In this document: positions 2,513-27,807 of the stretch, in pieces | How positions within the stretch are numbered: the stretch's first letter is position 1 | Layout of the letters: each line of letters starts with the position of its first letter | NCBI RefSeq assembly: GCF_004765795.1 | Contig: NZ_SBIV01000003.1 | Location: 1 to 64,000, forward strand | DNA length: 64,000 nt | Direction: 5' to 3' | Origin: Halorussus marinus | GTDB lineage: Archaea > Halobacteriota > Halobacteria > Halobacteriales > Haladaptataceae | Notes under the pieces: generated by a model | Seen by the model: the letters and a program-made list of their open reading frames with translations, nothing else | Database searches by the model: none | What the model was told of the DNA's origin: nothing | Position numbers and translations under genes: made by a program

Positions 2513-2514
2513 CT

Positions 2515-9626: not shown

Positions 9627-9670
9627 CCCGGTTTGGCGATTATCCCCTGGCCCGAACGCTTGGATGCGTC

Positions 9671-13087: not shown

Positions 13088-13129
13088 TTATTAATTTGAA
13101 GTGCAGGGCTTTAACGTTCAGCCTTAAAG

Positions 13130-13142: not shown

Positions 13143-13586
13143 TTCTACGTGAGAACAGCGAGTTTCGGAGCGGAACGTTCGTCGTTCGAAACCGACCCGT
13201 CGCCGAGGTCGATTCCGACGTCCGAGTCGAGTGTACCGAACGGCCCGCGACCGAGACGCGATTGCTGAGCGTTCGCGGTCGAGCTCAGCTCGCTCTCTCG
13301 CCCAGACCGGACTGCAGAGGCGTTCGACGACGGTTCGGAGCCGGCAGTCGATTTGTGTGTCCGCACAATCTCTGAGGAAGGCTACTTCGAGCCGTAAGCG
13401 ACGGGATTCTCGTCTCCGACACCGTCGGCAGTCGAGTCGACGAATAGCGCCATCAGGTGGCTCAGGGGCGTCACGCGACCTTGTGGTGTGTTTCCGTGAA
13501 CCGATCCCCTCGGTATCGATTTCTGTGTATGATATGGATAGAATCCGTGGATAAGATATTTATGGATCATTCGCATGCGTTCTCCT

Positions 13587-14969
13587 ATGACGGCTGGACC
13601 ACCCATCGACGAGTTGCACTACGACGACGCGCCCGACGTGAGCACTGTTCCCGGACCGGAATCCGAAAAACTGCTTCAGAAGCAACGCGACATCGACAGC
13701 AGCGCGGTCGCGTACCCCGAAGATATCCCCGTCGCCCTCGAAGAGGGCAAGGGCGCGACGGTCCGCGACGCGGACGGTAACACGTTCATCGACATGTTCG
13801 CGGGCATCGGCGTGTTGAACGTCGGCCACGCGAACCCATACGTGCTAGAGGCGGTCCACGAGCAGACCGACAAGCTCGTCCACACCGTCGACTTCCCGAC
13901 TGAGGCCCGACTCGAACTCATCGAGAAGCTCGACGAGATCGCCCCCGAGGGCCTCGAAGGGAACAACCGGGTCGTCTTCGGCGGCCCGACCGGCAGCGAC
14001 GCGGTCGAGGCCGCGATCAAGCTCGCGAAGTACAACACGGGCGGCGACGGCCTCGTCGCCTTCCGCGGAGCGTACCACGGTGCGACCAGCGGCGCGATGA
14101 GCCTCACCGGCAACAAGAAGTTCAAAGCGGATTACACGCCGCTGCTCTCGGAGGTCGTCCACGCCCCGTACCCCCATCCGTTCAGACAGGGCAAAGAGCC
14201 CCAGGAGGCGGTCGATCACGCCCTCGAAGAGGTCCGGGCCATCGTCGAGGACCCGTACGGCGGGCTCGCCAACCCCGCGGGCATCTTCGTCGAGCCGATT
14301 CAGGGCGAGGGCGGCGTCATCACGCCACCGGAGGGCTTCCTCAAGGGCCTGCGCGAGATCGCCGACGACAACGACGTGACGCTCGTCTTCGACGAGATCC
14401 AGGCGGGGCTCGGCCGCTCGGGTCAGTGGTGGGCCAGCGAGTGGTACGACGTCACCCCCGACGTGATGACCACCGCCAAGGCGCTCGGCGGCGTGGGCTT
14501 CCCGCTGTCGGCGACGATGTACCACGAGGACCTCGACACTTGGGGGTCGGGCGACCACGCCGGCACCTATCGGGGTCACGTCGTCGCGATGCGCGCGGGC
14601 ACTCGGGCCATCGAGTACATGCAGGACCACGACCTGCTCGCCCACGCTCGCGAACTCGGCGACCACATCCGCCAGCGTCTCCGGGACGTCGGCGAGGAGA
14701 CCGGCGCAATCGGTGAGGTCCGGGGCAAGGGCCTGTTCATCGGCGCGGAGTTCGTCGACGCCGACGGCGCGCCCGACGACGACGCGGTCGCGGCCATCCA
14801 ACAGCGTTGCTACGAGAACGGCGTCCTCGTCTGGAAGGCCGGGCGACACGGCAACGTGCTCCGGCTCCTCCCGCCGCTGGTGCTCACCGAGGCGCTCGCG
14901 GAGACCGCGATGGACGTCGTCGAGCAGGCGATCCGCGACGTCGCCGCCGACGCCAAGAGCGTCGCCTGA
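13587..14969 (+). CDS. Class III PLP aminotransferase, diaminobutyrate-2-oxoglutarate transaminase (EctB/Dat)-like
   Basis: [45 protein letters not shown]. Confidence 0.85.
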
Positions 14970-15010
14970 TCGCGGAGCGAGAGACGACCCACTACCATCC
15001 ACGACGACCT

Positions 15011-15400
15011 ATGACCGACACCGACCGAATCGTGACCGACGACGCACCGCGCAACGACAACCCCTACTCGCAGGGGGTCCGGGCCGGCGACACGCTGTAC
15101 GTCTCTGGCCACGGCCCCGTCGACCCCGAGACCTGCGCGGAGGTCGACGGCGACGTGCAGGCCCAGACCGACCGCGTCCTCGACAACCTCGCGGCGGTCG
15201 TCGAGGAGGCCGGCGGCGACGGGCTCGACGACGTGGTCAAGGTGACCGTCTACCTCACCGACCTCGACGACTACGACCGCGTCAACGACGCCTACGGCGA
15301 GCGGTTCCCCGGCGACCCGCCCGCGAGAGTCTGCGTCGAGGTGTCCCGGCTCCCCGGCGACGTCCGGATCGAACTCGACGCCGTGGCGTATCTGGGCTGA
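15011..15400 (+). CDS. RidA/Rid family enamine-imine deaminase
   Basis: PYSQG, YVSGH, VVKVTVYL, PPARVCV, RIELDAVA. Confidence 0.9.
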   Translation: MTDTDRIVTDDAPRNDNPYSQGVRAGDTLYVSGHGPVDPETCAEVDGDVQAQTDRVLDNLAAVVEEAGGDGLDDVVKVTVYLTDLDDYDRVNDAYGERFPGDPPARVCVEVSRLPGDVRIELDAVAYLG

Positions 15401-15407
15401 CCCCGAC

Positions 15408-16475
15408 TCACTCGCCGTCGGTTTCGCGGGCCACGACGAGCGGGTCGTCGTCGGGGACCGCGAGGTCGAGCAGTGGATCGTTCTCGTAGGCGGTCGCGCC
15501 CTCGTGGCGGCTCAGGACGTAGCCCGGCCGGTCGGTCCGGACGGTCGCCCTGTGCTCGCCGTGCGGGGTGAGGATGTCCGCCACGGGCTCTCCGTCCTCG
15601 ACGACGTCGCCCTCTCGGACGCGGTACCGAACGACTCCGGCGGTGTCGGTGTGGGGGTGGACCGCCCGCTTTCGCGGCGACGGCGTGGGCGCTTCGAGCT
15701 GTGGTTCGGCTCGGGGCGGCTCGTCGACGACCCCGAGCGCCCGCGCCACGTTCTTCAGTCCCTCGACGCCGTAGCGTCTGGCGTCGTCCTCGACGACGTA
15801 TCGCCCGCCGAGCTCGGGCGTGAAGGCCGGAATCCCGGCCTCGTGGACCGCGGCGCCCGACAGCGACCGGTGGAGCCCCTCGGCGACTTCCCGGGACCGC
15901 TCGTACTGGTTCACGACCGGCAGGCCGAACGCCGCGGTCAGGTCGGTTAGCCGGGTCGCGAGCGCGTCGGCTTCGTCCTCGGTTCGGTCTCGCCCGTAGG
16001 TGACCCGCGGCTGGATGACGTACGACGCCGAGCCGACCCACGAGGTGTGCAACGAGACGAGGGCGTCGGCGGTGTCGGCGACGAGATCGAACAGCCGGCG
16101 GTCGATGATCTCCTGGACTCGCGGTGGCCGGGTCGCCTCGGCGTCGGTGGCTGGGAAGTAGCGGTTGGGATCGTCGCCGTGGTAGTACGACGTCCGGCCG
16201 GTCACTCGGAGTCCGGCCGGGTTGGTGTTTGGGACGCAGACGACCCGCCCGGCGAGTCCCTCGGGGTCGAGCCACTCGACGAACTCGTGTGCGACCGCCA
16301 GACTCGTCGTCTCGTCGGCGTGGATCGCACCGACGACCCACAGCGTCGGGCCGGACTCGGCGCCGTCCGCGACGACGATCGGCAGTCGCTCGGCGCCGTC
16401 GGTCGGGAGCTCGGTCGCTTCGACGTACCCGGTCGTGGTCTCGCCTGCACGTACCTCTGCAGTTCCGATCTCCAT
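15408..16475 (-). CDS. Succinylglutamate desuccinylase/aspartoacylase family (M14-type) deacylase, DoeB/EutE-like
   Basis: GAIHADE, NRYFP, SLHT, FTPELGG, C-terminal biotinyl-like domain. Confidence 0.82.
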   Translation of the reverse strand: MEIGTAEVRAGETTTGYVEATELPTDGAERLPIVVADGAESGPTLWVVGAIHADETTSLAVAHEFVEWLDPEGLAGRVVCVPNTNPAGLRVTGRTSYYHGDDPNRYFPATDAEATRPPRVQEIIDRRLFDLVADTADALVSLHTSWVGSASYVIQPRVTYGRDRTEDEADALATRLTDLTAAFGLPVVNQYERSREVAEGLHRSLSGAAVHEAGIPAFTPELGGRYVVEDDARRYGVEGLKNVARALGVVDEPPRAEPQLEAPTPSPRKRAVHPHTDTAGVVRYRVREGDVVEDGEPVADILTPHGEHRATVRTDRPGYVLSRHEGATAYENDPLLDLAVPDDDPLVVARETDGE

Positions 16476-16565
16476 ACCGGCCTTCCGCGCGATGCCGACA
16501 AAACGCGTTCGCCACCGGCAACGCAGTTTCCGCCGTCGAGTCGCTCGGCGACGCGGCGGTCCTCC

Positions 16566-17219
16566 TCAGTCGTTGAGTTCTTCGACGCGCTGGTCGCGGC
16601 GCTCGGCGGCGGCGTCGACCTGTTCGATGAACTCGGTCATCTGGGCTTTCATCTCCGAGCGGATCTCGGTCGGCGAGAACTCCTCGGACTCCGAGAGGAG
16701 CCGGACGAACGCCCACAGCTCCTCGTCGGTGACCTCGCTGAAGTCGCCGAATTCGAGTTTGTCGATGACCTCGTCGACGTCGATCTGGCCGACCGGGTCG
16801 ACGTTGAAGTCGACGGTGACCATCCGGTAGTCAGATCCCGCGAGCTCCTGTTCGGCCTTGTTGACCCCCTGCGAGAGCATGTCCTTGAACGGGGTGTAGT
16901 AGCCCATCGTCCCGAGGTGGAGGAAGGCGAGCAGGTCGATGATGCCCTGCGTGTACGCCTCGCGGGCGTCGTCGTCGGGGTTGAACACCGTCTCGCGGTC
17001 GCGGTCTTCGAGGTGTTCGAACAGGATCGTGAAGTCGAGGATGGAGTTGCGGATGCGGCGTCGGATCCGGTTTCGCTTCTGCTTTTTCGAGTGTTCGGTG
17101 TAGTCGGTCTTGCGCCCGAGCAGGAACTCCCGGTCGCTCGGCGTGAGGATCCCCCTGCCGCGGTCGGGCGAGTACGTGACGCTCGCGTCGGAGTCGGCCT
17201 CGTCGGGACCGTCGGTCAT
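16566..17219 (-). CDS. Uncharacterised haloarchaeal protein, candidate transcription regulator
   Basis: RGILTPSDREFLLG..KKQKRNRIRRRIRNSILDFTILF basic helix; divergent from BCCT gene. Confidence 0.65.
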   Translation of the reverse strand: MTDGPDEADSDASVTYSPDRGRGILTPSDREFLLGRKTDYTEHSKKQKRNRIRRRIRNSILDFTILFEHLEDRDRETVFNPDDDAREAYTQGIIDLLAFLHLGTMGYYTPFKDMLSQGVNKAEQELAGSDYRMVTVDFNVDPVGQIDVDEVIDKLEFGDFSEVTDEELWAFVRLLSESEEFSPTEIRSEMKAQMTEFIEQVDAAAERRDQRVEELND

Positions 17220-17234
17220 ACACAGAATGTGTGT
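17217..17234 (-). promoter_or_regulatory. Candidate operator ACACACATTCTGTGTATG over the regulator start codon
   Basis: 16/18 identical to the site at 19448-19465. Confidence 0.6.
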
Positions 17235-17628
17235 ACGTATTTGATTAAGGGTTACGGTAGTCGGACGATATTTCCGGCTGATTCGGCGAGAGACGGGTCG
17301 AAACCGGGTACGGCGGTGATCGACGGGGCGATGGGGTCGCCGAATAGAGAACGACAGTCGGGTGCATTTCGACCGGGCGCGATCCGAACTGCGCAGACGA
17401 CTGCTCGTGACGCCGAAAAGCGACCGCCGAGTAATCCCGTCGCCGCCCCCGACATTCTCTCCCCCGCCGGCGAATTACCGTTAGGGAAGTAAACGAATAG
17501 CGTATACTAGAGGATTCAATACACATATTCTGTTTCCATTGACCTCAATAAACGTAATGTTTATGCCAATTGTTCACGACGGATGGGGTGTGCGACATCA
17601 GATAGCACGGTGCGCGTGAGGTACCCTC

Positions 17629-17772
17629 ATGAAAGCTAGAGAGTACGGCGCTACGTCCGATCCGACGTGCGAACAGCTCGACGAACGCATCTCCGTGACT
17701 ACCGGAATCGGTCAACCGGGAGCGTCCCCCGAAACCGATTTCCGGTTACGGGAGGTGGTCGCCCGTGAGTAA
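17629..17772 (+). CDS. Possible 47-aa upstream peptide overlapping the BCCT start
   Basis: MKAREYG...EVVARE; stop overlaps the GTG region of BCCT. Confidence 0.3.
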   Translation: MKAREYGATSDPTCEQLDERISVTTGIGQPGASPETDFRLREVVARE

Positions 17773-19408
17773 CGCCGACGACCTCGGGGCCGTCGGCCGG
17801 TTCAGAGAAGAGCTCGACCCGATCGTGTTCCTGTTCGGCGCGGGCCTGACCGTCGGACTCATCGCGCTGTACTTCGTCGACTCCGCGCTCGTCCAGGACG
17901 GGATCGACGCGGCCAACGGCCTGATAAACCAGTATCTCAACTGGGCGTTGCTGATCATCGTGTTCCTCATCGTCCTGTTCTTGCTGTTCCTGATCGTCGG
18001 CCCGTGGGGGAACATCAAGCTCGGCGACGAGTCGCCGGAGTACAGCTTCCTGTCGTTCTTCGCGATGCTGTACTCCGCGGGGTTCGCGGCGGGCGTGGTG
18101 TTCTGGGGTCCGGCCGAGGCGCTGTTCTACTACGACAACCCCTCGCCGCTGTTCGACGTCGCGGGCGGCTCCTCGGAGGCGATGGTGATCGCGGTCCAGC
18201 AGACGATCTTCCACTGGGCGCTCCCCCAGCTCGCGGTCTTCACCATCATGGGGATCGCGATCGGCTACTTCGCGTACAACTACGAGTCGGTTCCGCTCCG
18301 GGTCTCCTCGGCGCTGACCCCGATCCTCGGCAAGGACAACCTCGACGGCGTGGGCGCGAAGATCGTCGACATCATCGCGGTCTTCGCGACCATCGGCGGC
18401 GTCGCGACCTCGCTTGGCTTTATCGGGAGCCAGTTCATCACCGGGCTCGACTACCAGTGGGGCATCGATCTGGGTGACACCGGCGTCATCCTCGTCGTCA
18501 CCGCGATGACGCTTTTGTTCACCATCTCGATGGTGCTCGGGGTCGACAAGGGGATCCGTCGACTCTCGAACTTCAACATGATCATGTTCGTCGCGCTCAT
18601 GGCGGTGGCGTTCGTCGTGGGTCCGTCGGTGTTTCTCGTGTTGCTCGGGACCCAGGCGCTGGGCGGGATGATCACCGATTTCGTCTCGATGAGCCTGTTC
18701 ACCGGCGCGGGCGCGATGGGCGGGGGCGACCCCGCCGCCACCGAGTGGATGAACGCGTGGACGGTCTTCTACTGGGCGTGGGCGCTCTCGTGGTCGCCGT
18801 TCGCGGGCCTGTTCATCGCCCGCATCTCGAAGGGCCGGACCGTCCGGGAGGTCGCGTTCACCGGCATCGGCGCGACGTCGGCCGCGACCATCCCGTGGTT
18901 CACCATCGTCGGCGGGTCGGCCGTCTGGGCCCAGCACAACGGCACCGCCGATATTCTGGGTCCCCTCGGAGAGATCGGCGCCTCGGTCGCGGGCTACGCG
19001 CTGTTCGAGACGTTCCCGTTCGGCTCGGTGCTGATGGTGGTGTTCATGCTGCTGGTGACCACCTTCTTCATCACGTCGGCCGACTCCTCGACGCTCGCGG
19101 TGTCGATGATGACCACCGGCGGGAAGGCCGAGCCCTCGAACATCAACCGCGTGTTCTGGGGCGTCGTCCTCGGGATGTTCGCCGCGATCCTGATGACCCT
19201 CGGCGGGGTCAACGCGCTCCAGGACGCGGTCATCATCACCGGCGCGCCGTTCGCGTTCGTCTGTTTCGCCGCGTTGCTCGGGCTCGTCCGGGAGTTCAGT
19301 TCGAAGTACGGGCGCGTGTTGTTGCAGGAGGAGACGGCGATCGTCGGCTCCTCGGAGTCGACCGACAAATCCGGGACCGCCACGCGGCCGAGCACCGACG
19401 ACGACTGA
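17765..19408 (+). CDS. BCCT-family (betaine/carnitine/choline, also ectoine) transporter
   Basis: MLYSAG, FWGPAE, FHWAL, WTVFYWAWALSWSPFAGLFIARISKGRT; SD GGAGGTGG upstream. Confidence 0.95.
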   Translation: MSNADDLGAVGRFREELDPIVFLFGAGLTVGLIALYFVDSALVQDGIDAANGLINQYLNWALLIIVFLIVLFLLFLIVGPWGNIKLGDESPEYSFLSFFAMLYSAGFAAGVVFWGPAEALFYYDNPSPLFDVAGGSSEAMVIAVQQTIFHWALPQLAVFTIMGIAIGYFAYNYESVPLRVSSALTPILGKDNLDGVGAKIVDIIAVFATIGGVATSLGFIGSQFITGLDYQWGIDLGDTGVILVVTAMTLLFTISMVLGVDKGIRRLSNFNMIMFVALMAVAFVVGPSVFLVLLGTQALGGMITDFVSMSLFTGAGAMGGGDPAATEWMNAWTVFYWAWALSWSPFAGLFIARISKGRTVREVAFTGIGATSAATIPWFTIVGGSAVWAQHNGTADILGPLGEIGASVAGYALFETFPFGSVLMVVFMLLVTTFFITSADSSTLAVSMMTTGGKAEPSNINRVFWGVVLGMFAAILMTLGGVNALQDAVIITGAPFAFVCFAALLGLVREFSSKYGRVLLQEETAIVGSSESTDKSGTATRPSTDDD

Positions 19409-19447
19409 GCCGCGACCCGTCTAATAACAACTTTTAATTGACGACAC

Positions 19448-19465
19448 ATACACTTTCTGTGTATG
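19448..19465 (+). promoter_or_regulatory. Palindromic candidate operator ATACAC-TTTCT-GTGTAT over the aminotransferase start
   Basis: Perfect 6-bp arms, downstream of TATA-like TTTTAAT. Confidence 0.6.
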
Positions 19466-20821
19466 GATAGGGACACCGCGGAACCCGACGCGGACGCGCT
19501 CCCCGGCCCGAACGCCGAGAAGTGGGTGCAGTTCCACGGAGAGCACGCGGCCCCGAGCGAGTACTCCCACGAGTTCGTCTGGGACATCACCGCCGAGGCC
19601 GACGGCCCGTTCGTCACCGACGTCGACGGGAACGTGCTCCTCGATTTCACCTGCCACATCGGGGCCGCGCCGCTGGGGTACAACAACGAGAAGATGCTCG
19701 ACAAGTTCGAGGAGTTCGATCTGGTCGAGCCGATGAAGATCGCCGGCCAGGACATGTACTTCGGGGCGGGTCCCGACCCCGAGTCGTCGTCGCTTCCCGG
19801 TTCGAGCCACCTGATGGCGAGGCTGACGGAGGTGTCGAGCCACTACGACATGGACACGGTCTTCCTGTCGAACTCCGGGGCCGAGGCGGTCGAGAACGCG
19901 ATGAAGATCACCTACGACCGGAACCCGACCGCCAAGTACGGCTTCGCGTTCGCCGACAGCTTCCACGGCCGGACGCTCGGGACCCTCTCGGTCACCCGGT
20001 CGAACGAGGTCTACACCCGCCACTACCCGGAGATCGCCGGCATCCGGACGGTGCCGTTCTGCGACGGCTGTGGCGGCGCCGACTCGTGTGACTGTGGGTT
20101 TTTCACCGGCGAGGGCTCCCAGCTCCGAAACGCCCTCCAGCCCGAGGGCGGCCACCTCAACCCCGACGAGGTCGGATTCGTCGTCGTCGAGCCGATTCAG
20201 GGCGTCGGCGGCTACCGGTTCCCGAGCGAGTCGTTCATGGCGGAGGTCGGTGACGTCTGTGAGACGTACGACATCCCGCTGATCGTCGACGAGATCCAGT
20301 CGGGCGTCGGCCGCACCGGCGAGATGTGGGCCGCCGACCACTACCCCATCGAGCCGGACGTGATCGCGAGCGCCAAGGGGCTCCGGGTCGGCGCGACGAT
20401 CTCGCGCTCGGACGTCTTCCCCGCCGAGTCCAATCGCCTCGGCTCGACGTTCGGCGGCGGCGACATCCTCGCGTCGATGCAGGGCGTGTTCACGCTGGAG
20501 GCGATCGAGGAACACGACCTGCTCGACAACGCGACCGAGCGGGGTCGCCAGGCCACGGAACTGCTCGCCGACGGGTCGCCCGACCACGTCGTCGACGTGC
20601 GGGGCGAAGGACTCATGCTCGCGGTCGAGTTCGACGCCGCCGACCGGCGCGACGCCGTGGTCGAGGAGTCGCTGAAGCGGGGCCTGCTCACCCTCGGCTG
20701 TGGGACCAAGACCATCCGACTGCTCCCGCCGCTCGACGCGACCGAGCGCGAGATCGAGCTCGGCATCGGTATCTTCACCGACGCCGTCGAAGCCGCCGGC
20801 CGCGCGTCGCGGGTCGCGTAG
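19463..20821 (+). CDS. Class III PLP aminotransferase (4-aminobutyrate/ornithine-like)
   Basis: NSGAEAVENAMK, SFHGRT, EPIQGVGG, VDEIQSG, ASAK. Confidence 0.9.
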   Translation: MDRDTAEPDADALPGPNAEKWVQFHGEHAAPSEYSHEFVWDITAEADGPFVTDVDGNVLLDFTCHIGAAPLGYNNEKMLDKFEEFDLVEPMKIAGQDMYFGAGPDPESSSLPGSSHLMARLTEVSSHYDMDTVFLSNSGAEAVENAMKITYDRNPTAKYGFAFADSFHGRTLGTLSVTRSNEVYTRHYPEIAGIRTVPFCDGCGGADSCDCGFFTGEGSQLRNALQPEGGHLNPDEVGFVVVEPIQGVGGYRFPSESFMAEVGDVCETYDIPLIVDEIQSGVGRTGEMWAADHYPIEPDVIASAKGLRVGATISRSDVFPAESNRLGSTFGGGDILASMQGVFTLEAIEEHDLLDNATERGRQATELLADGSPDHVVDVRGEGLMLAVEFDAADRRDAVVEESLKRGLLTLGCGTKTIRLLPPLDATEREIELGIGIFTDAVEAAGRASRVA

Positions 20822-20929
20822 GACCCGGATCACGACGATCGGCGTCCGGCGTCCGAGTGCTCGGACCGAATCGAGCTCGGAGGCGAGACGCCAGACGCGC
20901 CTCGGCGCGGACCGACTCCTCGCCGGACG

Positions 20930-21100
20930 TCAGTCCTCGACCGCGACCCCGTCGAGAGCGTCCAGCCCGTCGAGCGTCTCCGCGAGGTGCTCGGGGCCGC
21001 TACCGGCTATCGCGGCGGCGACGGGGGTTCGGTTCGGATCGGCGGTCTCGACGTCGGCGTGAGTGACGACGTCGTCGGCGTCGGGGGCGCGCTCGGTCAT
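20930..21100 (-). pseudogene. Internally deleted threonine ammonia-lyase (IlvA/EutB-like) remnant, 56 aa
   Basis: VVTHADVETA resembles IlvA N-termini; GSGPEHLAETL resembles the ACT C-terminus TRGPEHVETLL of the ilvA at 60090; ATGA overlap with amidohydrolase. Confidence 0.55.
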
Positions 21101-22377
21101 GCGCCGTCGGTCGCGACCGAGCGGATCGACTCGGTCAACACCTCGACACCGGTCGCGAGGCTCCGCTCGTCGACGTCGAACGTCTCGGTGTGGTGGCTCG
21201 TCGGGTGGTCGGTGCCGACGATGAGGTACGACGCGAGCCCGCCCGCCTCCTGGACGCGCTCCATCAGGAAGGTGGCGTCCTCGCTCGCGCCGAAATCGGC
21301 GGTCGGCACGACGGTGTCGACGCCCTCGACGCCGCGGGCGGCGTCCGCGACGACGTCGACGAGTTCGGGGTCGCTGTCGGCCCGCGGCGACTCGCTGACC
21401 ACCTCGACCGTCGCCTCACAGCCGTGCATCTCGGCGGCGGTCTCGACGGTCTCGGTCAGCCGGCCTTTCGCGTACTCCATCAGCTCGGTGGTCTCCCCGC
21501 GGGCCTCGGCGACGAGGTCGGCGCGCTCGGCGATCACGTTGCTCGCGGTCCCAGACGACGCCTTGCCGACGTTCACCCGGGTCATCCCGTCCTCGTGGCG
21601 CGGGATGGCGTAGGCGTTCTGGATCGCGGTGCCGAGCGCCTGCATCGCGTTGTCGCCGTCCTGTGGGGCCTTTCCGGCGTGGGCGGAGGTCCCCCGGATG
21701 GTCGCGTCGACGTGGCACATCGCCAGCGGGCGCTCGATGCCTGCGACCACCTCGCCGGTCGGGTGGTCGAGGCCGACGTGGACCGCCAAGAAGTAATCGA
21801 GCCCTTCGGCGAACCGGCTCCGGGCCATCGGGTAGCCGCCGCCGGAAGTTTCCTCGGCGGGCTGGAAGAAGACGACCAGCCGACCCGCGAAGTCGCTGTC
21901 TTTGATCGCTTCGAGCGTCGCCAGCCCCCAGGTCATGTGGGCGTCGTGGCCGCAGGCGTGCATCGTCTCGCCGGTCTCCGACCGGAACCCCTCGGCGGCC
22001 GGAGCGTGGTCGTCGGCGCTCGACTCCTCGATGAACAGCCCGTCGATGTCGACCCGAAGGCCCACTGTCGGCCCCTCGCCCCGGTCGAGCACCGCGATCG
22101 CGCCGGTGTTGCCGCCCGCCATCGCGTCGAGGAGCCCGGGGTCCGCGCCCCGGTCGCGCGCGCGCTCGAACCACCGTTCGACGCTGTCGTCGTCGGGCAC
22201 CGCCATCCGGTCGTCGGGGTCGTACGCGTCGGGACCGACGGCGAGCTCGTCGACGCCGATCCGTTCGAGCGCCTCGACCAGCAGGTGGGTGGTGTAGAAC
22301 TCGCGCCACGCCGGCTCCGGATACCGGTGGAACTCGCGTCGGGTCTCGGCCAGTTCGTCTCGAACCGTCTCTGGCAT
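21097..22377 (-). CDS. M20-family amidohydrolase (AbgA-like)
   Basis: RREFHRYPEPAWREF, LRVDIDGL, MHACGHDAH, FQPAEE, GASEDA, HH. Confidence 0.9.
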   Translation of the reverse strand: MPETVRDELAETRREFHRYPEPAWREFYTTHLLVEALERIGVDELAVGPDAYDPDDRMAVPDDDSVERWFERARDRGADPGLLDAMAGGNTGAIAVLDRGEGPTVGLRVDIDGLFIEESSADDHAPAAEGFRSETGETMHACGHDAHMTWGLATLEAIKDSDFAGRLVVFFQPAEETSGGGYPMARSRFAEGLDYFLAVHVGLDHPTGEVVAGIERPLAMCHVDATIRGTSAHAGKAPQDGDNAMQALGTAIQNAYAIPRHEDGMTRVNVGKASSGTASNVIAERADLVAEARGETTELMEYAKGRLTETVETAAEMHGCEATVEVVSESPRADSDPELVDVVADAARGVEGVDTVVPTADFGASEDATFLMERVQEAGGLASYLIVGTDHPTSHHTETFDVDERSLATGVEVLTESIRSVATDGA

Positions 22378-22510
22378 GCGTGGACCTCACACGCTCCAGC
22401 CACTTATTTGTAAACGCTTTCCGTTAATAGTGGCTACACAAAGGATTAAGTCCGCCACTCGCCATGGGTCGAACACTCACAGCGCGTCCGCGAGACGCGA
22501 CCACCCAACC

Positions 22511-23482
22511 ATGAACGAGAAACCCGACGTCGTCGTCCTTCGGGAGGGGACCGAAGGGCTATCGATGGAATCGTACGCCGACGAACTGCGCGACCGACTC
22601 CCCGACCGCACCGTCGCGCTCGCGCGTACGCCGAGCGAGGAGCGCGAACTCGTCGCCGACGCCCGGGTCGTCACCGGCATCACCGTCGACGAGGAGACGC
22701 TCTCGGGAGCCCAACGGCTCGAACTGTTCGCCTGCACGTTCGCGGGCACCGACCACGTCCCGATGGACGCGTTCGCCGACCGCGGGGTCGCGGTCACGAA
22801 CGCCGGCGGCATCCACGCGCCCGGCATCGCCGAGCAGGCGATCGGCAACATGCTCGCGTTCGCGCGCCGGCTCCACGAGGGGTGGCGGCGCAAGCGGAAC
22901 CGCGAGTGGCGCCACTTCCAGTCGAGCGAGTTCACCGACAGCACCGTCACCGTGATCGGGCTCGGCTCCATCGGACAGGCGGTCGTCCAGCGCCTCGACG
23001 GGTTCGAGGTCGACACGATCGGCGTCCGCTACACCCCCTCGAAGGGCGGGCCGACCGACGAGGTCGTCGGCTTCGACGAGGAGGCGATCCACGACGCCCT
23101 CTCGCGCAGCGAGTACGTCGTCGTCGCCTGCCCGCTCAACGACATGACCCGCGGGCTGATCGGCGAGGCCGAACTGGCGACGCTCCCGACCGACGCCGTG
23201 GTGGTCAACGCCGCCCGCGGCCCCATCGTCGACACCGACGCGCTCGTCTCGGCGCTGCGCTCGAACAAGATCCGGGGCGCGGCCCTCGACGTGACCGACC
23301 CCGAGCCCCTGCCCGAGGACCACGCGCTCTGGACCCTCGAAAACTGCCTGATCACGCCCCACACCGGCGGCCACACCCCGCGCCACTGGGAGCGGCTCGC
23401 CGACATCGTCGCCGACAACGTCGAACGGCTCGACTCGGGCGCGGCGCTCGAAAACCAAGTACTTGCGCCCGAGTCCCGTTAG
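22511..23482 (+). CDS. D-2-hydroxyacid dehydrogenase
   Basis: GLGSIG, VNAARG, AALDV..EPL, TPHTGG. Confidence 0.92.
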   Translation: MNEKPDVVVLREGTEGLSMESYADELRDRLPDRTVALARTPSEERELVADARVVTGITVDEETLSGAQRLELFACTFAGTDHVPMDAFADRGVAVTNAGGIHAPGIAEQAIGNMLAFARRLHEGWRRKRNREWRHFQSSEFTDSTVTVIGLGSIGQAVVQRLDGFEVDTIGVRYTPSKGGPTDEVVGFDEEAIHDALSRSEYVVVACPLNDMTRGLIGEAELATLPTDAVVVNAARGPIVDTDALVSALRSNKIRGAALDVTDPEPLPEDHALWTLENCLITPHTGGHTPRHWERLADIVADNVERLDSGAALENQVLAPESR

Positions 23483-23491
23483 CTCGAACAG

Positions 23492-26400
23492 ATGGCCACA
23501 CACGACACCCCGGCCGCCGACGAGCGGCCGGACCGCGACGACGATCCGGCGGCCGACCCGCGGGCCGACTACGACTACGTCGGCGGCGGCGTCGCCGACG
23601 CGGAGCTCGTCGGAGACCTCCGCGACCGGATCGACGGCGAGGTCCGCTTCGATTCGTACTCCCGCCAGCTGTACGCGACCGACGCCAGCGCCTACGAGGT
23701 GACGCCGATCGGCGTCGTCCTCCCGGCCTCGACCGCGGACGTCGCGGCGGTCGTCGAGTACTGCGCCGACCGCGAGATCCCGGTCCTCCCGCGGGGTGGC
23801 GGGACCAGCCTCGCCGGGCAGGCGGTCAACGAGGCGGTCGTGCTCGATTTCACGACCCACATGGGCGAGCTGGTCGAGGTCGACCCCGACGACCGCCGGG
23901 CGCGGATGCAGGCCGGTGCGGTCCTCGCGGAGCTCAACGACGAGCTCGCGCCCCACGGTCTGAAGTTCGCGCCCGACCCCGCCGCGGGCAACCGGAGCAC
24001 CGTCGGCGGTGCGATCGGGAACAACTCGACGGGGGCTCACTCGCTGAAGTACGGCAAGACCGACGCGTACGTCGAGTCGTGCGAGGTCGTCTTGGCGGAC
24101 GGCACCGTGACGACGTTCGGCGAGGTCTCGCTCGACGAACTCCGAGCCCGGGCCGACCCGGCGGCCGAGGACCTCCAAGCCCGCATCTACGCCGAGGTCG
24201 CTCGCATCGTCGACGAGGAAGCCGAGGCGGTTCGGGACGTCTACCCCCAGCTCAAGCGCAACGTCTCGGGGTACAACCTCGATCGATTGATAGCCGAGGC
24301 CGAGGACGGCTCGGTCAACCTCGCGCGCCTGCTCGCCGGGAGCGAGGGCACCCTCGGGATCGTCACCGAGGCGACGGTCTCGCTCGAACCCGTCCCCGAG
24401 ACCAAGGCGGTCGCGCTCCTCACGTACCCCGACCTGCTGGACGCGATGGCCGACGTCGACGACATCGTCCGGGACCACGACCCGGCGGCCGTCGAGGCCA
24501 TCGACGACGTGTTGCTCGATCTGGCCCGAGACACCGAGGAGTTCGCGGACGTGGTCGGGATGCTCCCGTCGGGGACCGAGACCGCGCTACTCGTGGAGTT
24601 CTACGCCGAGGACGACGCCCGCGGCCGCGAGCAGGTCGCGGACCTGCTCGACGACCGCGTGGGCGACCGGGCGTTCGACGCGCTCGAAGCCCACGACGCC
24701 GACGAGCGCGCCCAGCTCTGGAAGCTCCGGAAGTCCGGGATGCCGATCCTGCTCTCTAGGACCTCCGACGCCAAACACATCTCGTTCATCGAGGACACCG
24801 CGGTCCCGACCGAGAACCTCGCCGACTACGTCGCGGAGTTCCAGCGGGTCCTCGAAGACAACGACACGTTCGCGAGCTTCTACGCCCACGCCGGTCCCGG
24901 GTGTATGCACATGCGCCCGCTGGTCGACACCAAGAGCCCGGCGGGAGTCAACCAGATGGAGTCCATCTCGGACGCGGTGACCGACCTCGTCGTAGAGTAC
25001 GGCGGGAGCGTCTCGGGCGAACACGGCGACGGCCGCGCCCGGACCCAGTGGAACCGCAAGCTCTACGGCGACCACGTCTGGGGCGTGTTTCGCGATCTCA
25101 AGACCGCGTTCGACCCCGACTGGCTGCTCAACCCCGGGCAGGTGTGTGGCGACGTCGACATGACCGAGAACCTGCGATTCGACCCCGACTACGAGTTCGA
25201 GGCCGGCTTCGATCCGGCGCTCGACTGGGCCAACGAGAACGGCTTTCAGGGGATGGCCGAACTCTGTCACGGCTGTGGGGGCTGTCGGGGCGAGCAGGAG
25301 ACCACCGGCGGCGTGATGTGTCCGACCTACCGGGCCGCCGACGAGGAGAGCCTCAGCACGCGCGGCCGGGCGAACATGCTCCGGCAGGCGATGAGCGGCG
25401 ACCTCGATCAGGATTCGACCGACACCGAGTTCGTCGCCGAGGTGATGGACCTCTGTATCGGCTGTAAGGGCTGTAAGCGCGACTGTCCGAGCGAGGTCGA
25501 CATGGCGAAGCTCAAAGCCGAGGTCGAACACGCCCACCACGAGGAGCACGGCGCCGACCTCCGCGAGCGCCTCTTCTCGGAGGTCGACCGGCTCAACGCG
25601 GTCGGATCGGCGCTCGCGCCCCTCTCGAACTGGGCCGAGAAGCTCCCGGGGGCCCGCACCCTCCTGGAGAAGACCGTCGGCATCGCCCGCGAGCGCGAGC
25701 TCCCGACGTTCCACCGCGAGAGCTTCGTCGACTGGTTCGAGGCCCGGGGCGGTCCCCGTGTCTCTGCGGCCGACGCGGTCCGGAAGGTCGCGCTGTTCCC
25801 CGACGCGTACACCAACTACAACCATCCCGAGGCCGGGAAGGCGGCGGTCCGCGTCCTCGAAGCCGCGGGGGTCCGGGTCCGGATCCCGGCGGACGTGACC
25901 TCGACCGGGCGGCCGGCCCACTCGAAGGGCTTTCTCGACAAGTCCCGCGAGCGCGCCGCGCAGAACGTCGACGCGCTCGCGCCGAAGGTCGAAGACGGCT
26001 GGGAGGTGGTGCTGGTCGAGCCCTCCGACGCCGTGATGCTCCAGTCGGACTACCTCGACCTGCTGGGCGAGACGACCGACGCCGAGCGGGTGGCGAGAAA
26101 CACCTACGGCGTGCTGGAGTATCTCGACCGGTTCGACCTGACCGACGCGGTCGCGTTCGACGCGCCAGACGAGTCGGTGACCTACCACGGCCACTGCCAC
26201 CAGAAGGCGACCAAGAAAGACCACCACGCCGCCGCGGTGCTCGACGCGGCGGGCTACGAGGTGGACCCGCTGGACTCGGGATGTTGCGGGATGGCCGGGA
26301 GCTTCGGCTACGAGGCCGAACACTACTCGATGAGCAGAGCGATCGGCGAGATCCTGTTCGAGCAGGTCGAGGCCAGCGACGGCGACGTGGTGGTCGCGCC

Positions 26401-26497
26401 CGGCGCGTCGTGTCGGACCCAGCTCGGCGACCGGGATGGCGACGCCCCCGAGCCGCCCCACCCGATCGAGAAGGTCGCCGACGCCGCCGGCCGGTAG
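23492..26497 (+). CDS. FAD-linked oxidase with 4Fe-4S and CCG domains (D-lactate/glycolate dehydrogenase-like)
   Basis: PRGGGTSLAGQ, GSEGTLG, SGEHGDG, CHGCGGC, CIGCKGC, CCGMAGSFG. Confidence 0.92.
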   Translation: MATHDTPAADERPDRDDDPAADPRADYDYVGGGVADAELVGDLRDRIDGEVRFDSYSRQLYATDASAYEVTPIGVVLPASTADVAAVVEYCADREIPVLPRGGGTSLAGQAVNEAVVLDFTTHMGELVEVDPDDRRARMQAGAVLAELNDELAPHGLKFAPDPAAGNRSTVGGAIGNNSTGAHSLKYGKTDAYVESCEVVLADGTVTTFGEVSLDELRARADPAAEDLQARIYAEVARIVDEEAEAVRDVYPQLKRNVSGYNLDRLIAEAEDGSVNLARLLAGSEGTLGIVTEATVSLEPVPETKAVALLTYPDLLDAMADVDDIVRDHDPAAVEAIDDVLLDLARDTEEFADVVGMLPSGTETALLVEFYAEDDARGREQVADLLDDRVGDRAFDALEAHDADERAQLWKLRKSGMPILLSRTSDAKHISFIEDTAVPTENLADYVAEFQRVLEDNDTFASFYAHAGPGCMHMRPLVDTKSPAGVNQMESISDAVTDLVVEYGGSVSGEHGDGRARTQWNRKLYGDHVWGVFRDLKTAFDPDWLLNPGQVCGDVDMTENLRFDPDYEFEAGFDPALDWANENGFQGMAELCHGCGGCRGEQETTGGVMCPTYRAADEESLSTRGRANMLRQAMSGDLDQDSTDTEFVAEVMDLCIGCKGCKRDCPSEVDMAKLKAEVEHAHHEEHGADLRERLFSEVDRLNAVGSALAPLSNWAEKLPGARTLLEKTVGIARERELPTFHRESFVDWFEARGGPRVSAADAVRKVALFPDAYTNYNHPEAGKAAVRVLEAAGVRVRIPADVTSTGRPAHSKGFLDKSRERAAQNVDALAPKVEDGWEVVLVEPSDAVMLQSDYLDLLGETTDAERVARNTYGVLEYLDRFDLTDAVAFDAPDESVTYHGHCHQKATKKDHHAAAVLDAAGYEVDPLDSGCCGMAGSFGYEAEHYSMSRAIGEILFEQVEASDGDVVVAPGASCRTQLGDRDGDAPEPPHPIEKVADAAGR

Positions 26498-26538
26498 GCC
26501 GGGCCCGGCGCCGTCTCGGGGCGGTCCGCGCCCCGCGT

Positions 26539-27717
26539 TCAGGCCGTGAACAGCTCTCGCGGGAACTCCGCGAGCACCTCCGCGCCGCTGGACGTGACCC
26601 GGAAGGTCTCGCTGAGCTCGACGCCGAAGTCGTCGAACCACAGTCCCGGGATCATGTGGAAGGTCATGTTCTCCTCCAGGATCGTCTCGTCGCCCGGCCG
26701 GATGCTGGCGGTGTGCTCGCCCCAGTCCGGCGGGTAGCCCAGCCCCATCGAGTAGCCGATCCGGTCTTCTTTCTCGACGTCGTACTTCGCGATCGTCTCG
26801 CGCCACGCCTTCTCGACGGACTCGGCGGTCACGCCGGGTTCGACCGCGTCGAGCGCGGCGTCGATGCCCTCGACCACGATGTCGGCGGTCTCTTGGACCT
26901 CCGCCGGCGGGTCGCCGACGAACGTCGTCCGCGCGAGCGGCGAGTGGTACCGATGACGACAGCCCGACAGCTCGATGATGACCGGGTCGCCGTCCTCGAA
27001 CTCCCGGTCGGTCCAGGTGAGGTGGGGCGTCCCGGTGTGGTCGCCCGACGGCATCAGGGGCACGATCGAGGGGTAGTCGCCGCCGTACTCGTCGGTGCCG
27101 TCGACGAGCGCCGAGTAGATCGCCTCGGCGGCCTCGTACTCCGGGACGCCCTCGCCGATGGCGTCGAGCCCCGCGGCCATCGCGTTCTCGGAGATGCGGG
27201 CGGCCTGGCGCATGTACTCTAACTCCTGCTCGGATTTCTCGACCCGGGCCCAGTTGACCAACAGCGTGTGGTCCTCGAAGTCGGCCTCCGGGAGGTTCTT
27301 CTGGAGGCGAGTGTAGGACTTGGCGGTGAAGTAGTAGGCGTCCATCTCCAGTCCGACCGTACCGTCGGCGACTCCGAGCGCCTCCAGTTGGTCGGCGAGA
27401 AAGTCCATCGGATGGAGGTCGTACGGCGAGTGAACGTGGTCGTCGCTGTACGCCCGGATGCTGTCCTCGTCGAGCGTCGTGGTCGCCCGAGCGCCGTTGG
27501 CGTCCATCTCCCGGCCCACCCACACCGGTTCGTCGCGGTCCGGGGTCACGATGACCGCCTGATGGACGTAAAACGACCAGCCGTCGTATCCCGTGAGGTA
27601 GTTCATGTTCGCGGGGTCGGAGACGACGAGCGCGTCCAACTCCTCCTCGCGCAGTCGCGTTTTCGTCCGTTCGATTCGGCGTTCGTACTCGCTCTCGTCG
27701 AAGATCACCTGAGACAT
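26539..27717 (-). CDS. doeA: M24-family hydrolase, ectoine hydrolase DoeA/EutD-like
   Basis: DPANMNYLTGYDGWSFYVHQ, PHLTW, GCRHRYHSPLART, GYPPDWGE, TFHM match my recollection of the DoeA/EutD consensus; lacks canonical prolidase metal ligands. Confidence 0.78.
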   Translation of the reverse strand: MSQVIFDESEYERRIERTKTRLREEELDALVVSDPANMNYLTGYDGWSFYVHQAVIVTPDRDEPVWVGREMDANGARATTTLDEDSIRAYSDDHVHSPYDLHPMDFLADQLEALGVADGTVGLEMDAYYFTAKSYTRLQKNLPEADFEDHTLLVNWARVEKSEQELEYMRQAARISENAMAAGLDAIGEGVPEYEAAEAIYSALVDGTDEYGGDYPSIVPLMPSGDHTGTPHLTWTDREFEDGDPVIIELSGCRHRYHSPLARTTFVGDPPAEVQETADIVVEGIDAALDAVEPGVTAESVEKAWRETIAKYDVEKEDRIGYSMGLGYPPDWGEHTASIRPGDETILEENMTFHMIPGLWFDDFGVELSETFRVTSSGAEVLAEFPRELFTA

Positions 27718-27807
27718 GGCAACGCTACTCACTACCCCGTTCGCCGACCGAGAGTATAAGGTTTTTTGTGTACGATAAAATCGGTTACTGTGTATATCTC
27801 GGTCGAG

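What the first reader, a model, noticed from the sequence alone, without database searches (positions are those of the whole stretch)
13587..27717. Candidate archaeal ectoine/hydroxyectoine catabolic system
Seen: one 14-kb cluster encodes a BCCT transporter, an M24 hydrolase with GYDGWSFYVHQ/PHLTW/YPPDWGE motifs, an aspartoacylase-type deacylase, a DABA-type class III aminotransferase, a second aminotransferase, RidA and an IlvA-like remnant. Established: bacterial ectoine degradation uses DoeA/EutD (ring opening), DoeB/EutE (N-acetyl-DABA deacetylase) and a DABA transaminase, with EutB (threonine dehydratase-like) for hydroxyectoine. Inference: this haloarchaeon, of a group that mainly balances salt with KCl, scavenges bacterial ectoines as C/N source. 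It would use an EctB/Dat-type transaminase and a BCCT importer instead of DoeD and TRAP/ABC systems. No ectA/ectC is seen, so it is not biosynthetic. The pathway is characterised in bacteria; I know of no characterised archaeal version.
Basis: partly seen in the sequence, partly recalled or inferred. Interest (0 to 1): 0.82.

Follow-up and report, generated by a model that had tools for sequence, protein, structure and literature searches.

The report
Haloarchaeal ectoine-breakdown regulon, new regulator
This salt-loving archaeon carries a gene cluster, found in about a third of haloarchaea and already published as an untested prediction, that likely lets it eat the protective solute ectoine made by bacteria; what we add is a shared palindromic DNA box at its promoters and an unknown-fold protein predicted to be its switch.

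Summary
The cluster is real. The M24 gene is a DoeA/EutD-like, metal-free hydrolase: 389 bits to H. elongata DoeA against 104 to prolidase and 69 to creatinase, but below the DoeA cut-off and outside the proteobacterial DoeA clade. It occurs in 100 of 301 Halobacteria genomes, including Haloferax volcanii. The ectoine reading is not new: PMC13188858 (2026) lists the same cluster as putative, and this scan noted it before in Haloferax. The ilvA remnant is a real in-frame deletion of a threonine ammonia-lyase, not EutB. Not found in the papers searched: a palindromic box (TACACA-N5-TGTGTA) at five of six promoter regions, and a DUF8102 gene present in 95 of 100 cluster-bearing genomes and 0 of 201 others, predicted dimeric and probably the regulator. 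Against that, boxes persist in some genomes lacking the gene. Substrate, pathway and regulator are untested.

The parts
13513..13551 (+). Two tandem palindromic boxes (22 bp apart) upstream of the putative TATA box of AT1; candidate operator
   Evidence: PWM 11.7 bits at 13513 plus a weak partner; one of 6 paired sites in the genome
13587..14969 (+). AT1, class III PLP aminotransferase, Dat-like; likely DABA 4-aminotransferase
   Evidence: TIGR00709 353.9 bits (cut-off 401.6), ectB 304 (552); PLP Lys298 motif; nearest named non-orthologues ~40% DABA transaminases; best PDB hit 7vno
15011..15400 (+). RidA-family imine/enamine deaminase
   Evidence: TIGR00004 131.9 bits, over cut-off 106.25; 16 of 40 wide loci
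15408..16475 (-). AstE/AspA-type deacylase; lineage-specific add-on, not a DoeB orthologue; possible second deacylase
   Evidence: PF24827; HADE/NRYF/SLHT motifs; TIGR02994 50.6 vs 402.7; 2 of 40 wide loci, both same genus; 0 of 20 loci that show both DUF8102 and RidA
16566..17219 (-). DUF8102 (PF26404) protein; candidate dimeric transcription regulator of the cluster
   Evidence: Atlas score 0.96 to PF26404 clusters; in 95 of 100 M24-positive and 0 of 201 M24-negative genomes; homodimer score 0.86 vs best control 0.00; no clear fold match
17219..17235 (-). Palindromic box ending on the DUF8102 start codon (autoregulation-type position)
   Evidence: 20.9 bits, the highest-scoring site in the 3.76-Mb genome
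17490..17536 (+). Two boxes upstream of the BCCT gene
   Evidence: 14.9 bits at 17490 and 17.1 bits at 17520
17765..19408 (+). BCCT-family transporter, the only one found in this genome; likely importer
   Evidence: PF02028 486 bits; single BCCT tblastn hit; 27 of 40 wide loci
19447..19463 (+). Box ending on the AT2 start codon
   Evidence: 15.5 bits; AT2 promoters were not used for training, 26 of 27 score at least 9 bits
19463..20821 (+). AT2, second class III aminotransferase (PRK05769/ornithine omega-aminotransferase-like)
   Evidence: PLP Lys305 motif; 30 of 40 wide loci
20930..21100 (-). ilvA remnant: in-frame internal deletion of about 360 codons of an ACT-domain threonine ammonia-lyase
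   Evidence: junction bridged by a contig of run X1; full gene in relatives passes TIGR01127 and fails the EutB model
21097..22377 (-). M20 (AbgA/AbgB-like) amidohydrolase; best candidate N-acetyl-DABA deacetylase
   Evidence: TIGR01891 248 bits over cut-off; DoeB2 model 89.6 vs 550; 73 of 80 loci; 32 of 40 wide loci
22411..22427 (.). Box in the divergent M20/D2HDH promoter region
   Evidence: 13.1 bits; held-out M20 promoters 32 of 34 score at least 9 bits
22511..23482 (+). D-2-hydroxyacid dehydrogenase (2-oxoacid reductase), the gene most tightly linked to the M24 gene
   Evidence: best PDB hit 5mh5, D-2-hydroxyacid dehydrogenase; 73 of 80 and 35 of 40 loci
23492..26497 (+). FAD/Fe-S oxidoreductase (YdiJ/GlcD-GlpC-like), optional member
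   Evidence: NF049975 552 vs cut-off 1350; 13 of 40 wide loci
26539..27717 (-). DoeA/EutD-like M24 hydrolase (392 aa); likely ring-opening enzyme
   Evidence: TIGR02993 463 vs cut-off 613; PDB 6twk DoeA 389 bits; prolidase metal ligands absent; trees
27756..27794 (-). Two tandem boxes upstream of and overlapping the putative BRE/TATA of the M24 gene
   Evidence: 14.0 bits at 27778; pair score 15.9 at 22-bp spacing; conserved in relatives

Best explanation
This conserved haloarchaeal gene cluster, whose promoters share one palindromic box, likely imports and breaks down ectoine: the BCCT carrier would take it up, the DoeA-like M24 enzyme would open the ring to N-acetyl-diaminobutyrate, the M20 amidohydrolase (not the AspA-type gene) would remove the acetyl group, the Dat-like aminotransferase and an aldehyde oxidase encoded elsewhere would carry diaminobutyrate on to aspartate, and the DUF8102 dimer probably represses these promoters until substrate appears.
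Shown here: gene content, families, conservation, the ilvA deletion, the box, and DUF8102 co-occurrence.
Inferred: every enzymatic step and the regulator-box link.
Relatives fill the aldehyde step with an aldehyde:ferredoxin oxidoreductase (AOR) or an aldehyde dehydrogenase, and many add gdhB to recycle glutamate; here the AOR orthologue lies on contig C2.
D2HDH and AT2 are core but have no place in the bacterial Doe pathway. The most economical reading (about 40% likely if ectoine is the substrate) is a side route through 4-amino-2-oxobutyrate. In relatives IlvA plus RidA would turn 3-hydroxy-DABA (from hydroxyectoine) into this 2-oxo acid, where bacteria use EutB plus the reductase EutC. D2HDH would reduce it, an aminotransferase and the aldehyde oxidase would give malate, and the FAD enzyme oxaloacetate. 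The gamma-acetyl isomer could enter the same route. With ilvA deleted, this strain would be a natural mutant poor at using hydroxyectoine, unless housekeeping IlvA stands in.
For: M24 identity and family:
- 48% to R. lentis DoeA and 55% to the Priestia M24 that sits beside eutB and a cyclodeaminase.
- PDB best hit DoeA at 389 bits, against prolidase 104 and creatinase 69.
- Residues matching H. elongata Y52, H238, E255, R326 and Y329 are kept (alignment; their catalytic role is recalled from Mais 2020, not read).
- All five prolidase metal ligands are replaced as in DoeA.
- Quick trees group it with proteobacterial DoeA and the Priestia enzyme (SH-aLRT 95), apart from DoeA_2-like rows and prolidases. 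The methylotroph DoeA, 42% identical to H. elongata DoeA, is shown to hydrolyse ectoine (PMC7192451), so the haloarchaeal clade is roughly bracketed by proven enzymes.
M20 as deacetylase: DoeB2 of methylotrophs scores M20 proteins; M20 genes flank DoeA-like genes in Priestia and Shinella.
Conservation: M24 in 100 of 301 Halobacteria genomes; no match in the non-Halobacteria families of a 201-genome phylum sample. Core of M24, M20, AT1, AT2 and D2HDH is kept even in minimal clusters.
Box: trained on M24, AT1 and DUF8102 promoters of other genomes, it finds held-out AT2 (26 of 27) and M20 (32 of 34) promoters. Five of 6 intergenic regions here score at least 11 bits; 0 of 2000 column-permuted matrices do so.
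DUF8102: 95 of 100 versus 0 of 201 genomes (kin are not independent). Distant paralogues carry a different palindrome of the same geometry ending on their own ATG (clear in L174 and L181, imperfect in L169, L170, L176, of 17 loci examined). Homodimer score 0.86, best control 0.00, runs agree in at least 81% of contacts, pLDDT at least 72; this mark was reached by 20 of 30 solved pairs and 1 of 23 single chains.
Against: - The M24 fails both ectoine-hydrolase cut-offs (463 < 613; 243 < 575) and lies outside the clade of annotated proteobacterial DoeA.
- The conserved pocket residues are shared by most of the 68 DoeA-like rows, including proteins in non-eut contexts in Rhizobium and Agrobacterium, so they mark the chemistry, not the substrate.
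- No downstream enzyme is an orthologue of DoeB, DoeB2, DoeC, DoeD, EutB or EutC by model score. The M20 is only 25% identical to the Priestia M20.
- The best PDB hit of both aminotransferases is the same Pyrococcus-type enzyme 7vno, recalled as an ornithine omega-aminotransferase; the FAD enzyme resembles a D-2-hydroxyglutarate dehydrogenase. Both fit a five-carbon substrate equally well.
- In the 5 M24-positive genomes without a DUF8102 hit, boxes largely persist: G252 has three at 16-17 bits (180 contigs), G042 one at 18, G146 one at 14, G236 three at 12-13; only G087 is decayed (9-11). This does not support DUF8102 as the only binder.
- DUF8102 shows no recognisable DNA-binding fold.
- No experiment on archaeal ectoine use was found.
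Confidence: 0.66

Rival explanations
1. Same chemistry, different solute. The cluster degrades another cyclic amidine or N-acylated diamino acid (for example an ornithine- or lysine-backbone analogue), passing through a 2-hydroxy acid such as D-2-hydroxyglutarate.
For: The haloarchaeal M24 clade is separate from proven proteobacterial DoeA. The DoeA-like family has hundreds of 50% clusters of unknown function (584 at E <= 1e-30). AT2 is PRK05769-like and the FAD enzyme is YdiJ-like. D2HDH and AT2 are core yet unexplained by the canonical pathway.
Against: The nearest bacterial relative (55%, Priestia) sits beside an annotated eutB and a cyclodeaminase. AT1 is Dat-like. Ectoine is the abundant bacterial solute of these habitats (PMC13595746 passages). 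A five-carbon 5-amino-2-oxo acid would cyclise rather than be a D2HDH substrate (general chemistry, recalled).
Confidence: 0.22
2. One reading: a straight copy of the bacterial Doe/Eut pathway, with the AspA-type gene as DoeB and the IlvA-like gene as EutB, giving use of both ectoine and hydroxyectoine in this strain.
For: The AspA gene has intact zinc-site motifs, is in the same fold family as EutE, and may be co-transcribed from the boxed DUF8102 promoter. A second deacylase slot is filled by a second M20 in 9 of 40 loci and by AspA in 2.
Against: AspA is absent from 38 of 40 wide loci, 22% identical to DoeB, and outscored by three other genes of this genome. ilvA is deleted here and fails the EutB model in relatives.
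Confidence: 0.05
3. The cluster in this strain is decaying and no longer works, whatever it does in relatives.
For: ilvA is deleted; gdhB, AOR and IclR are missing from the cluster compared with H. volcanii; the cluster abuts a low-GC integrated element.
Against: All core genes are full length without stops. Boxes are intact and top-ranked in the genome. ilvA is also missing or truncated in 4-5 of 57 other loci and in minimal clusters. AOR and GdhB orthologues (77%) exist elsewhere in the genome.
Confidence: 0.05
4. The M24 protein is an Xaa-Pro peptidase or creatinase in a general amino-acid or peptide scavenging cluster.
For: Public annotations call orthologues 'Xaa-Pro aminopeptidase' or 'creatinase'.
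Against: All five metal ligands are missing; prolidases form a separate clade (99); creatinase scores 69 bits against 389 for DoeA. No creatinase row was in the trees.
Confidence: 0.02

Closest known systems
Putative ectoine catabolism region of Halobacteria (Boas Lichty et al. 2026, PMC13188858, Figs S10-S11; Haloprofundus halobius, Halomarina pelagica)
   Same: Same cluster. Of the 13 genes listed from eutD to IclR for H. halobius, 9 are intact here in the same order (M24, FAD oxidoreductase, D2HDH, amidohydrolase, AT2, BCCT, hypothetical, ridA, atf) and ilvA is a remnant. Also untested.
   Different: Here ilvA is deleted, gdhB, AOR and IclR are absent from the cluster, and an AspA-type gene is inserted. 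In the text read (main-text term search, supplement 1 part 2 of 3; figure images not seen) the paper assigns no deacetylase, no role to D2HDH or RidA, no operator and no role to the hypothetical gene.
Doe/Eut pathway of Halomonas elongata, Ruegeria pomeroyi and Sinorhizobium meliloti (DoeA/EutD, DoeB/EutE, DoeD/Atf, DoeC/Ssd, EutABC, EnuR, TRAP/ABC importers)
   Same: DoeA-like ring-opening enzyme at about 48% identity; the same logic of deacetylase, transaminase and aldehyde oxidation.
   Different: No orthologue of EutE, DoeD, DoeC, EutA, EutB, EutC, EnuR or AsnC in the cluster. It has a BCCT importer, M20, a Dat-like aminotransferase, AOR or ALDH, IlvA with RidA, extra core D2HDH and AT2, and DUF8102 as candidate regulator.
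doeBDAC of Methylomicrobium alcaliphilum 20Z (DoeA_2 NF038259, DoeB2 NF038260; PMC7192451)
   Same: Proven ectoine hydrolysis by a divergent DoeA; the deacetylase model matches M20 proteins.
   Different: Both haloarchaeal proteins fall far below these cut-offs (243/575 and 89.6/550); it is an ectoine producer's recycling operon without an importer.
Putative Bacillota clusters (pucR-eutB-eutD-eutC ... abgB/M20-hom-aldh; Priestia plasmid)
   Same: Nearest M24 by identity (55%); M20 instead of EutE; untested.
   Different: Keeps an annotated EutB and a cyclodeaminase, has a PucR regulator, and lacks D2HDH.

Membership tests
Ectoine hydrolase DoeA/EutD (TIGR02993) | Score over the curated cut-off of 613 bits | tested here: not met
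   463.1 bits; none of the 12 matching genomes in a 201-genome phylum sample passes
Ectoine hydrolase DoeA/EutD (TIGR02993) | Metal-free M24 fold with the DoeA pocket (H. elongata Y52, H238, E255, R326, Y329; roles recalled) | tested here: met
   Y50, H232, E249, R319, Y322; also shared by DoeA-like proteins outside eut operons, so not diagnostic of substrate
Ectoine hydrolase DoeA/EutD (TIGR02993) | Nested within the clade of annotated proteobacterial DoeA | tested here: not met
   Sister-level position inside the DoeA-like family, outside the 98-99-supported DoeA clade; quick trees, SH-aLRT only
Ectoine hydrolase DoeA/EutD (TIGR02993) | Hydrolyses ectoine to N-acetyl-DABA | not testable with these tools
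   needs an enzyme assay
Ectoine hydrolase DoeA_2 (NF038259) | Score over 575 bits | tested here: not met
   243.3 bits
Xaa-Pro peptidases (prolidase/aminopeptidase P) | Five metal ligands D, D, H, E, E | tested here: not met
   E, P, Y, I, S at those columns, aligned against the genome's own peptidases
Creatinase | Closer to creatine amidinohydrolases than to DoeA | tested here: not met
   69 vs 389 bits; no creatinase row in the trees
DoeB/EutE deacetylase (TIGR02994), for 15408-16475 | Score over 402.7 bits and constant linkage to doeA | tested here: not met
   50.6 bits; 2 of 40 wide loci
DoeB2 (NF038260), for 21097-22377 | Score over 550 bits | tested here: not met
   89.6 bits
M20 amidohydrolase (TIGR01891), for 21097-22377 | Score over 153.75 bits and metal-site motifs | tested here: met
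   248.2 bits; DxD, CGH, EE, H and HH motifs present
EutB hydroxyectoine dehydratase (TIGR02991) | Score over 413 bits; intact gene | tested here: not met
   Relative's full gene scores 256.5 but passes TIGR01127 (396.8 vs 378.75); deleted here
DABA transaminase Dat/EctB, for AT1 | Score over cut-off (TIGR00709 401.6; TIGR02407 552.2) | tested here: not met
   353.9 and 304.4 bits; works-like claim only
Ectoine biosynthesis (ectABC) | ectC and ectA present | tested here: inconclusive
   No match in the genome; the ectC search had no ringing control
Putative halobacterial ectoine catabolism region (PMC13188858 Fig. S11) | eutD-like M24 with amidohydrolase, two aminotransferases, BCCT, D2HDH and ridA in conserved order | tested here: met
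Known archaeal DNA-binding regulators (HTH, RHH, Lrp and others), for DUF8102 | Recognisable DNA-binding fold | tested here: inconclusive
   Model pLDDT 75; Foldseek no match at E <= 0.001; VIA-align best Z 4.9

The most novel reading that the evidence does not exclude
DUF8102 is an undescribed family of dimeric archaeal transcription factors with no known fold, each binding a palindrome that ends on its own start codon. This member runs an ectoine regulon in a third of haloarchaea. The pathway differs from the bacterial one: IlvA plus RidA replace EutB plus EutC, and a 2-hydroxyacid dehydrogenase and second aminotransferase funnel (hydroxy)ectoine through 4-amino-2-oxobutyrate to malate or oxaloacetate.
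Probability: 0.27. Interest if true: 0.72.

Novelty: new variant of a known kind. Interest (0 to 1): 0.42.

Why it matters
Until 2026, ectoine consumers were thought to be only Proteobacteria (PMC5924519). If the cluster works as predicted, a third of haloarchaeal species recycle the main bacterial osmolyte of salterns and saline soils, a cross-domain carbon and nitrogen link, using mostly non-orthologous enzymes. The cluster itself is already in print as a prediction, which limits surprise. What this analysis adds is a testable plan in a model organism. H. volcanii DS2 carries the complete cluster on pHV3 (HVO_RS01240-01300); the deacetylase candidate, operator and regulator are named; and natural ilvA-less strains exist. 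A working box and regulator would define a new archaeal regulator family and might give an ectoine-inducible promoter for haloarchaeal genetics.

Tried and rejected
- Mais et al. 2020 (EutD structure) is not held and two searches for its residues found nothing useful, so the catalytic roles are recalled.
- No paper held the six guessed HVO_B02xx locus tags, 'DUF8102' or 'PF26404', or 'growth on ectoine' with haloarchaea. PMC8305020 has no mention of ectoine in its main text. One search found 0 papers.
- tblastn with the genome's own PALP proteins did not detect the ilvA remnant; it showed up only against cluster IlvAs of relatives.
- The +/-10-kb loci cannot reach the AspA position in a window-like gene order, so their count (1-2 of 80) was not used alone. 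40 one-sided 20-kb loci were fetched instead; genes upstream of M24 can be missed there.
- AOR promoter hits (7 of 9) were dropped as held-out evidence because AOR shares its intergenic region with AT1. Negative rows such as gdhB and FADox are weak controls because their upstream DNA is coding.
- The test of box loss in DUF8102-less genomes was mixed to negative.
- The first DUF8102 model (pLDDT 55) was not searched; the second gave no fold match.
- The careful tree did not finish; quick trees were used. No true DoeA_2 member or creatinase was available as a row; P0236 (459 of 575 bits) stood in.
- No RNA holder was listed.
- The ectC positive control was not searched because the record was too large.
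- Other high-scoring boxes elsewhere in the genome showed no obvious regulon gene.

Full report
OBSERVATION. The window belongs to a haloarchaeon whose closest named relatives are Halorussus species (M24 protein 92% and 90% identical). Between 13587 and 27717 lie ten intact genes and one remnant: AT1 (13587-14969+), RidA (15011-15400+), an AstE/AspA-type deacylase (15408-16475-), a 217-aa DUF8102 protein (16566-17219-), a BCCT carrier (17765-19408+), AT2 (19463-20821+), the ilvA remnant (20930-21100-), an M20 amidohydrolase (21097-22377-), a D-2-hydroxyacid dehydrogenase (D2HDH, 22511-23482+), a FAD/Fe-S oxidoreductase (23492-26497+) and the M24 hydrolase (26539-27717-). The ilvA remnant is the first ~20 and last ~36 codons of the cluster's ~420-aa IlvA fused in frame. 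A 491-bp contig of run X1 crosses the junction without gaps, so it exists as DNA; X1 could be the source sample.

THE KEY ENZYME. The M24 protein matches H. elongata DoeA (PDB 6twk) at 389 bits, prolidases at 104 or less and creatinase at 69. Against the genome's own peptidases, the five metal-ligand columns read E, P, Y, I, S, the same kind of change as in DoeA. Residues at H. elongata Y52, H238, E255, R326 and Y329 are kept (alignment). That these are pocket and catalytic residues is recalled from Mais et al. 2020, which was not held. Against orthology: it scores 463 of 613 bits on the DoeA model and 243 of 575 on DoeA_2. Quick trees (71 and 36 rows, SH-aLRT only) put the haloarchaeal clade inside the DoeA-like family (99), grouped with proteobacterial DoeA and the Priestia enzyme (95), but outside the annotated DoeA clade. 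The same pocket residues occur in DoeA-like proteins of unrelated contexts. It therefore works like DoeA chemically; the substrate is an inference from context and from rough bracketing by the proven methylotroph enzyme (PMC7192451, passages and section 15), for which only a stand-in row (P0236, 459 of 575 bits) was available.

CONSERVATION. The gene is in 100 of 301 Halobacteria genomes (33 of 80 genera). In a 201-genome phylum sample the 12 matches are all in halobacterial families. In 80 loci of +/-10 kb (at least 45% identity): D2HDH 73, M20 73, ilvA 68, AT2 57, gdhB 47, BCCT 45, AT1 36, FAD enzyme 35, DUF8102 30, RidA 27, AOR 16, ALDH 10, AspA 1. Because that flank truncates the cluster, 40 one-sided loci of up to 20 kb were read: D2HDH 35, M20 32, AT2 30, ilvA 28, BCCT 27, AT1 26, DUF8102 25, RidA 16, gdhB 14, FAD enzyme 13, AOR 8, IclR 5, AspA 2 (both same-genus genomes). 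A second M20 occupies a slot beside DUF8102 in 9 of the 40. Minimal clusters keep M24, M20, AT1, AT2 and D2HDH. So AspA is an add-on (22% to DoeB; fourth-best DoeB-model hit in its own genome), and M20 is the conserved deacetylase candidate. M20 genes also flank DoeA-like genes in Priestia and Shinella. The cluster IlvA passes TIGR01127 and fails the EutB model. H. volcanii DS2 has the full 13-gene version on pHV3. In this genome the AOR orthologue (77%) lies at C2:403152-404804 and GdhB orthologues (76-78%) on C8 and C9. No ectA or ectC was found, without a positive control for ectC.

REGULATION. Upstream regions share a palindrome, consensus TACACAGAATCTGTGTA. A matrix trained only on M24, AT1 and DUF8102 promoters of other genomes scores at least 9 bits in 26 of 27 AT2 and 32 of 34 M20 promoters, gene types it never saw (the two locus sets share some genomes). 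In this genome 103 sites reach 9 bits in 3.76 Mb; seven of the top 24, including the best two, lie in the cluster (13513, 17219, 17490, 17520, 19447, 22411, 27778). Five of six intergenic regions have a site of at least 11 bits, which 0 of 2000 column-permuted matrices reproduce; the sixth is upstream of AspA. Boxes end on the start codons of DUF8102 and AT2 and abut or overlap the putative BRE/TATA of M24 and AT1, positions typical of repression (inference). The DUF8102 orthologue is in 95 of the 100 M24-positive and none of the 201 M24-negative genomes, even when unlinked; kin are not independent. Distant paralogues carry another palindrome of the same geometry ending on their own ATG (clear in 2 and imperfect in at least 3 of 17 loci). 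The protein has a basic helix with invariant arginines and is predicted to dimerise (0.86 against 0.00 for the best control; contacts agree at least 81%; pLDDT at least 72; mark reached by 20 of 30 solved pairs and 1 of 23 single chains). Against: no known fold was matched, and boxes largely persist in the five genomes lacking a DUF8102 hit. I put DUF8102 as the binder at about 60%.

MECHANISM. Most likely (0.66), and inferred throughout: BCCT import; M24 ring opening to N-acetyl-DABA; M20 deacetylation to DABA and acetate; AT1 transamination to aspartate semialdehyde; AOR or ALDH oxidation to aspartate; GdhB releasing ammonia. D2HDH and AT2 point to a second route through a 2-oxo/2-hydroxy acid. 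In relatives IlvA plus RidA would convert 3-hydroxy-DABA to 4-amino-2-oxobutyrate; D2HDH, an aminotransferase, the aldehyde oxidase and the FAD enzyme would lead to malate and oxaloacetate. The gamma-acetyl isomer, which H. elongata DoeA makes at 1:2 and DoeB does not take (PMC5924519 section 8.4), could explain both this route and the recurring second deacylase. The main rival is a different amidine or acyl-diamine substrate (0.22).

PRIOR KNOWLEDGE. PMC13188858 (abstract and passages, section 8, supplement 1 part 2 of 3; figure images not seen) reports over 100 archaeal EutD hits, a 92-taxon tree and gene tables of this cluster, and calls it provisional. PMC13595746 (passages) assigns doe genes in a salt lake partly to Halobacteriota. 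PMC5924519 (passages) still restricted consumers to Proteobacteria. PMC3102087 (passages) discusses haloarchaeal BCCTs only for betaine. An earlier agent reached the same overall verdict on a Haloferax window, seen after I had found the paper. No experimental archaeal study, and no mention of DUF8102 or the operator, appeared; subscription journals and most supplements are outside that search.

VERDICT. A real, widespread, untested variant of a known pathway, already predicted in print. The added value is the corrected core, the operator and the candidate regulator, all directly testable in H. volcanii. Interest 0.42.

Noticed in passing
window 1-13100: Low-GC (50-57%) stretch abutting the cluster, with tyrosine-recombinase genes (9671-10354, 11783-13087), an HNH-domain gene (10549-11655) and, by eye only, an AbiEi-like ORF (2515-3348); looks like an integrated mobile element.
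   Followed up: no
L174, L181 (also L169, L170, L176, L182), about 20 bases before the DUF8102 start: Distant DUF8102 paralogues have their own palindrome (ATAATC-N7-GATTAT type) ending on the start codon, suggesting a family of self-regulating DNA-binding proteins.
   Followed up: partly
G000:C2:403152-404822: Stand-alone AOR, 77% identical to the cluster AOR of H. volcanii, with a weak 9.3-bit box just before its start; may be a displaced regulon member.
   Followed up: partly
window 55980-61301: Cyclodeaminase-family gene (36% to R. lentis EutC), thermosome-like gene, tRNA-Ser, a Rid gene and an intact ilvA (48% to the cluster IlvA of H. volcanii); the housekeeping ilvA-rid pair could partly stand in for the deleted copy.
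   Followed up: no
L142 (G103:C12), L143 (G325:C33): Second, divergent DoeA-like genes (54-59%) in some haloarchaea form their own branch with P0126; one lies near a BCCT gene and may serve another substrate.
   Followed up: no
L149:3648-8347 (Shinella plasmid): PLP-aminotransferase-family (probably MocR-type regulator) gene, eutA, DoeA-like M24 and an M20 amidohydrolase in a row: a bacterial case of M20 in the EutE position.
   Followed up: no
L112, L118, L120, L122-L125, L127, L130: A second M20 paralogue (59-63% to the H. volcanii M20) sits next to DUF8102, where Halorussus has AspA; repeated recruitment of a second deacylase.
   Followed up: partly
L190 (G081:C3:246000-262000): An aldehyde dehydrogenase flanked by boxes (20 bits upstream, 12 downstream) next to DUF8102, suggesting ALDH and AOR are interchangeable regulon members.
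   Followed up: no
L077/L078; G059:C3: Apparently identical duplicate copies of the cluster within one assembly; true duplication or assembly overlap.
   Followed up: no
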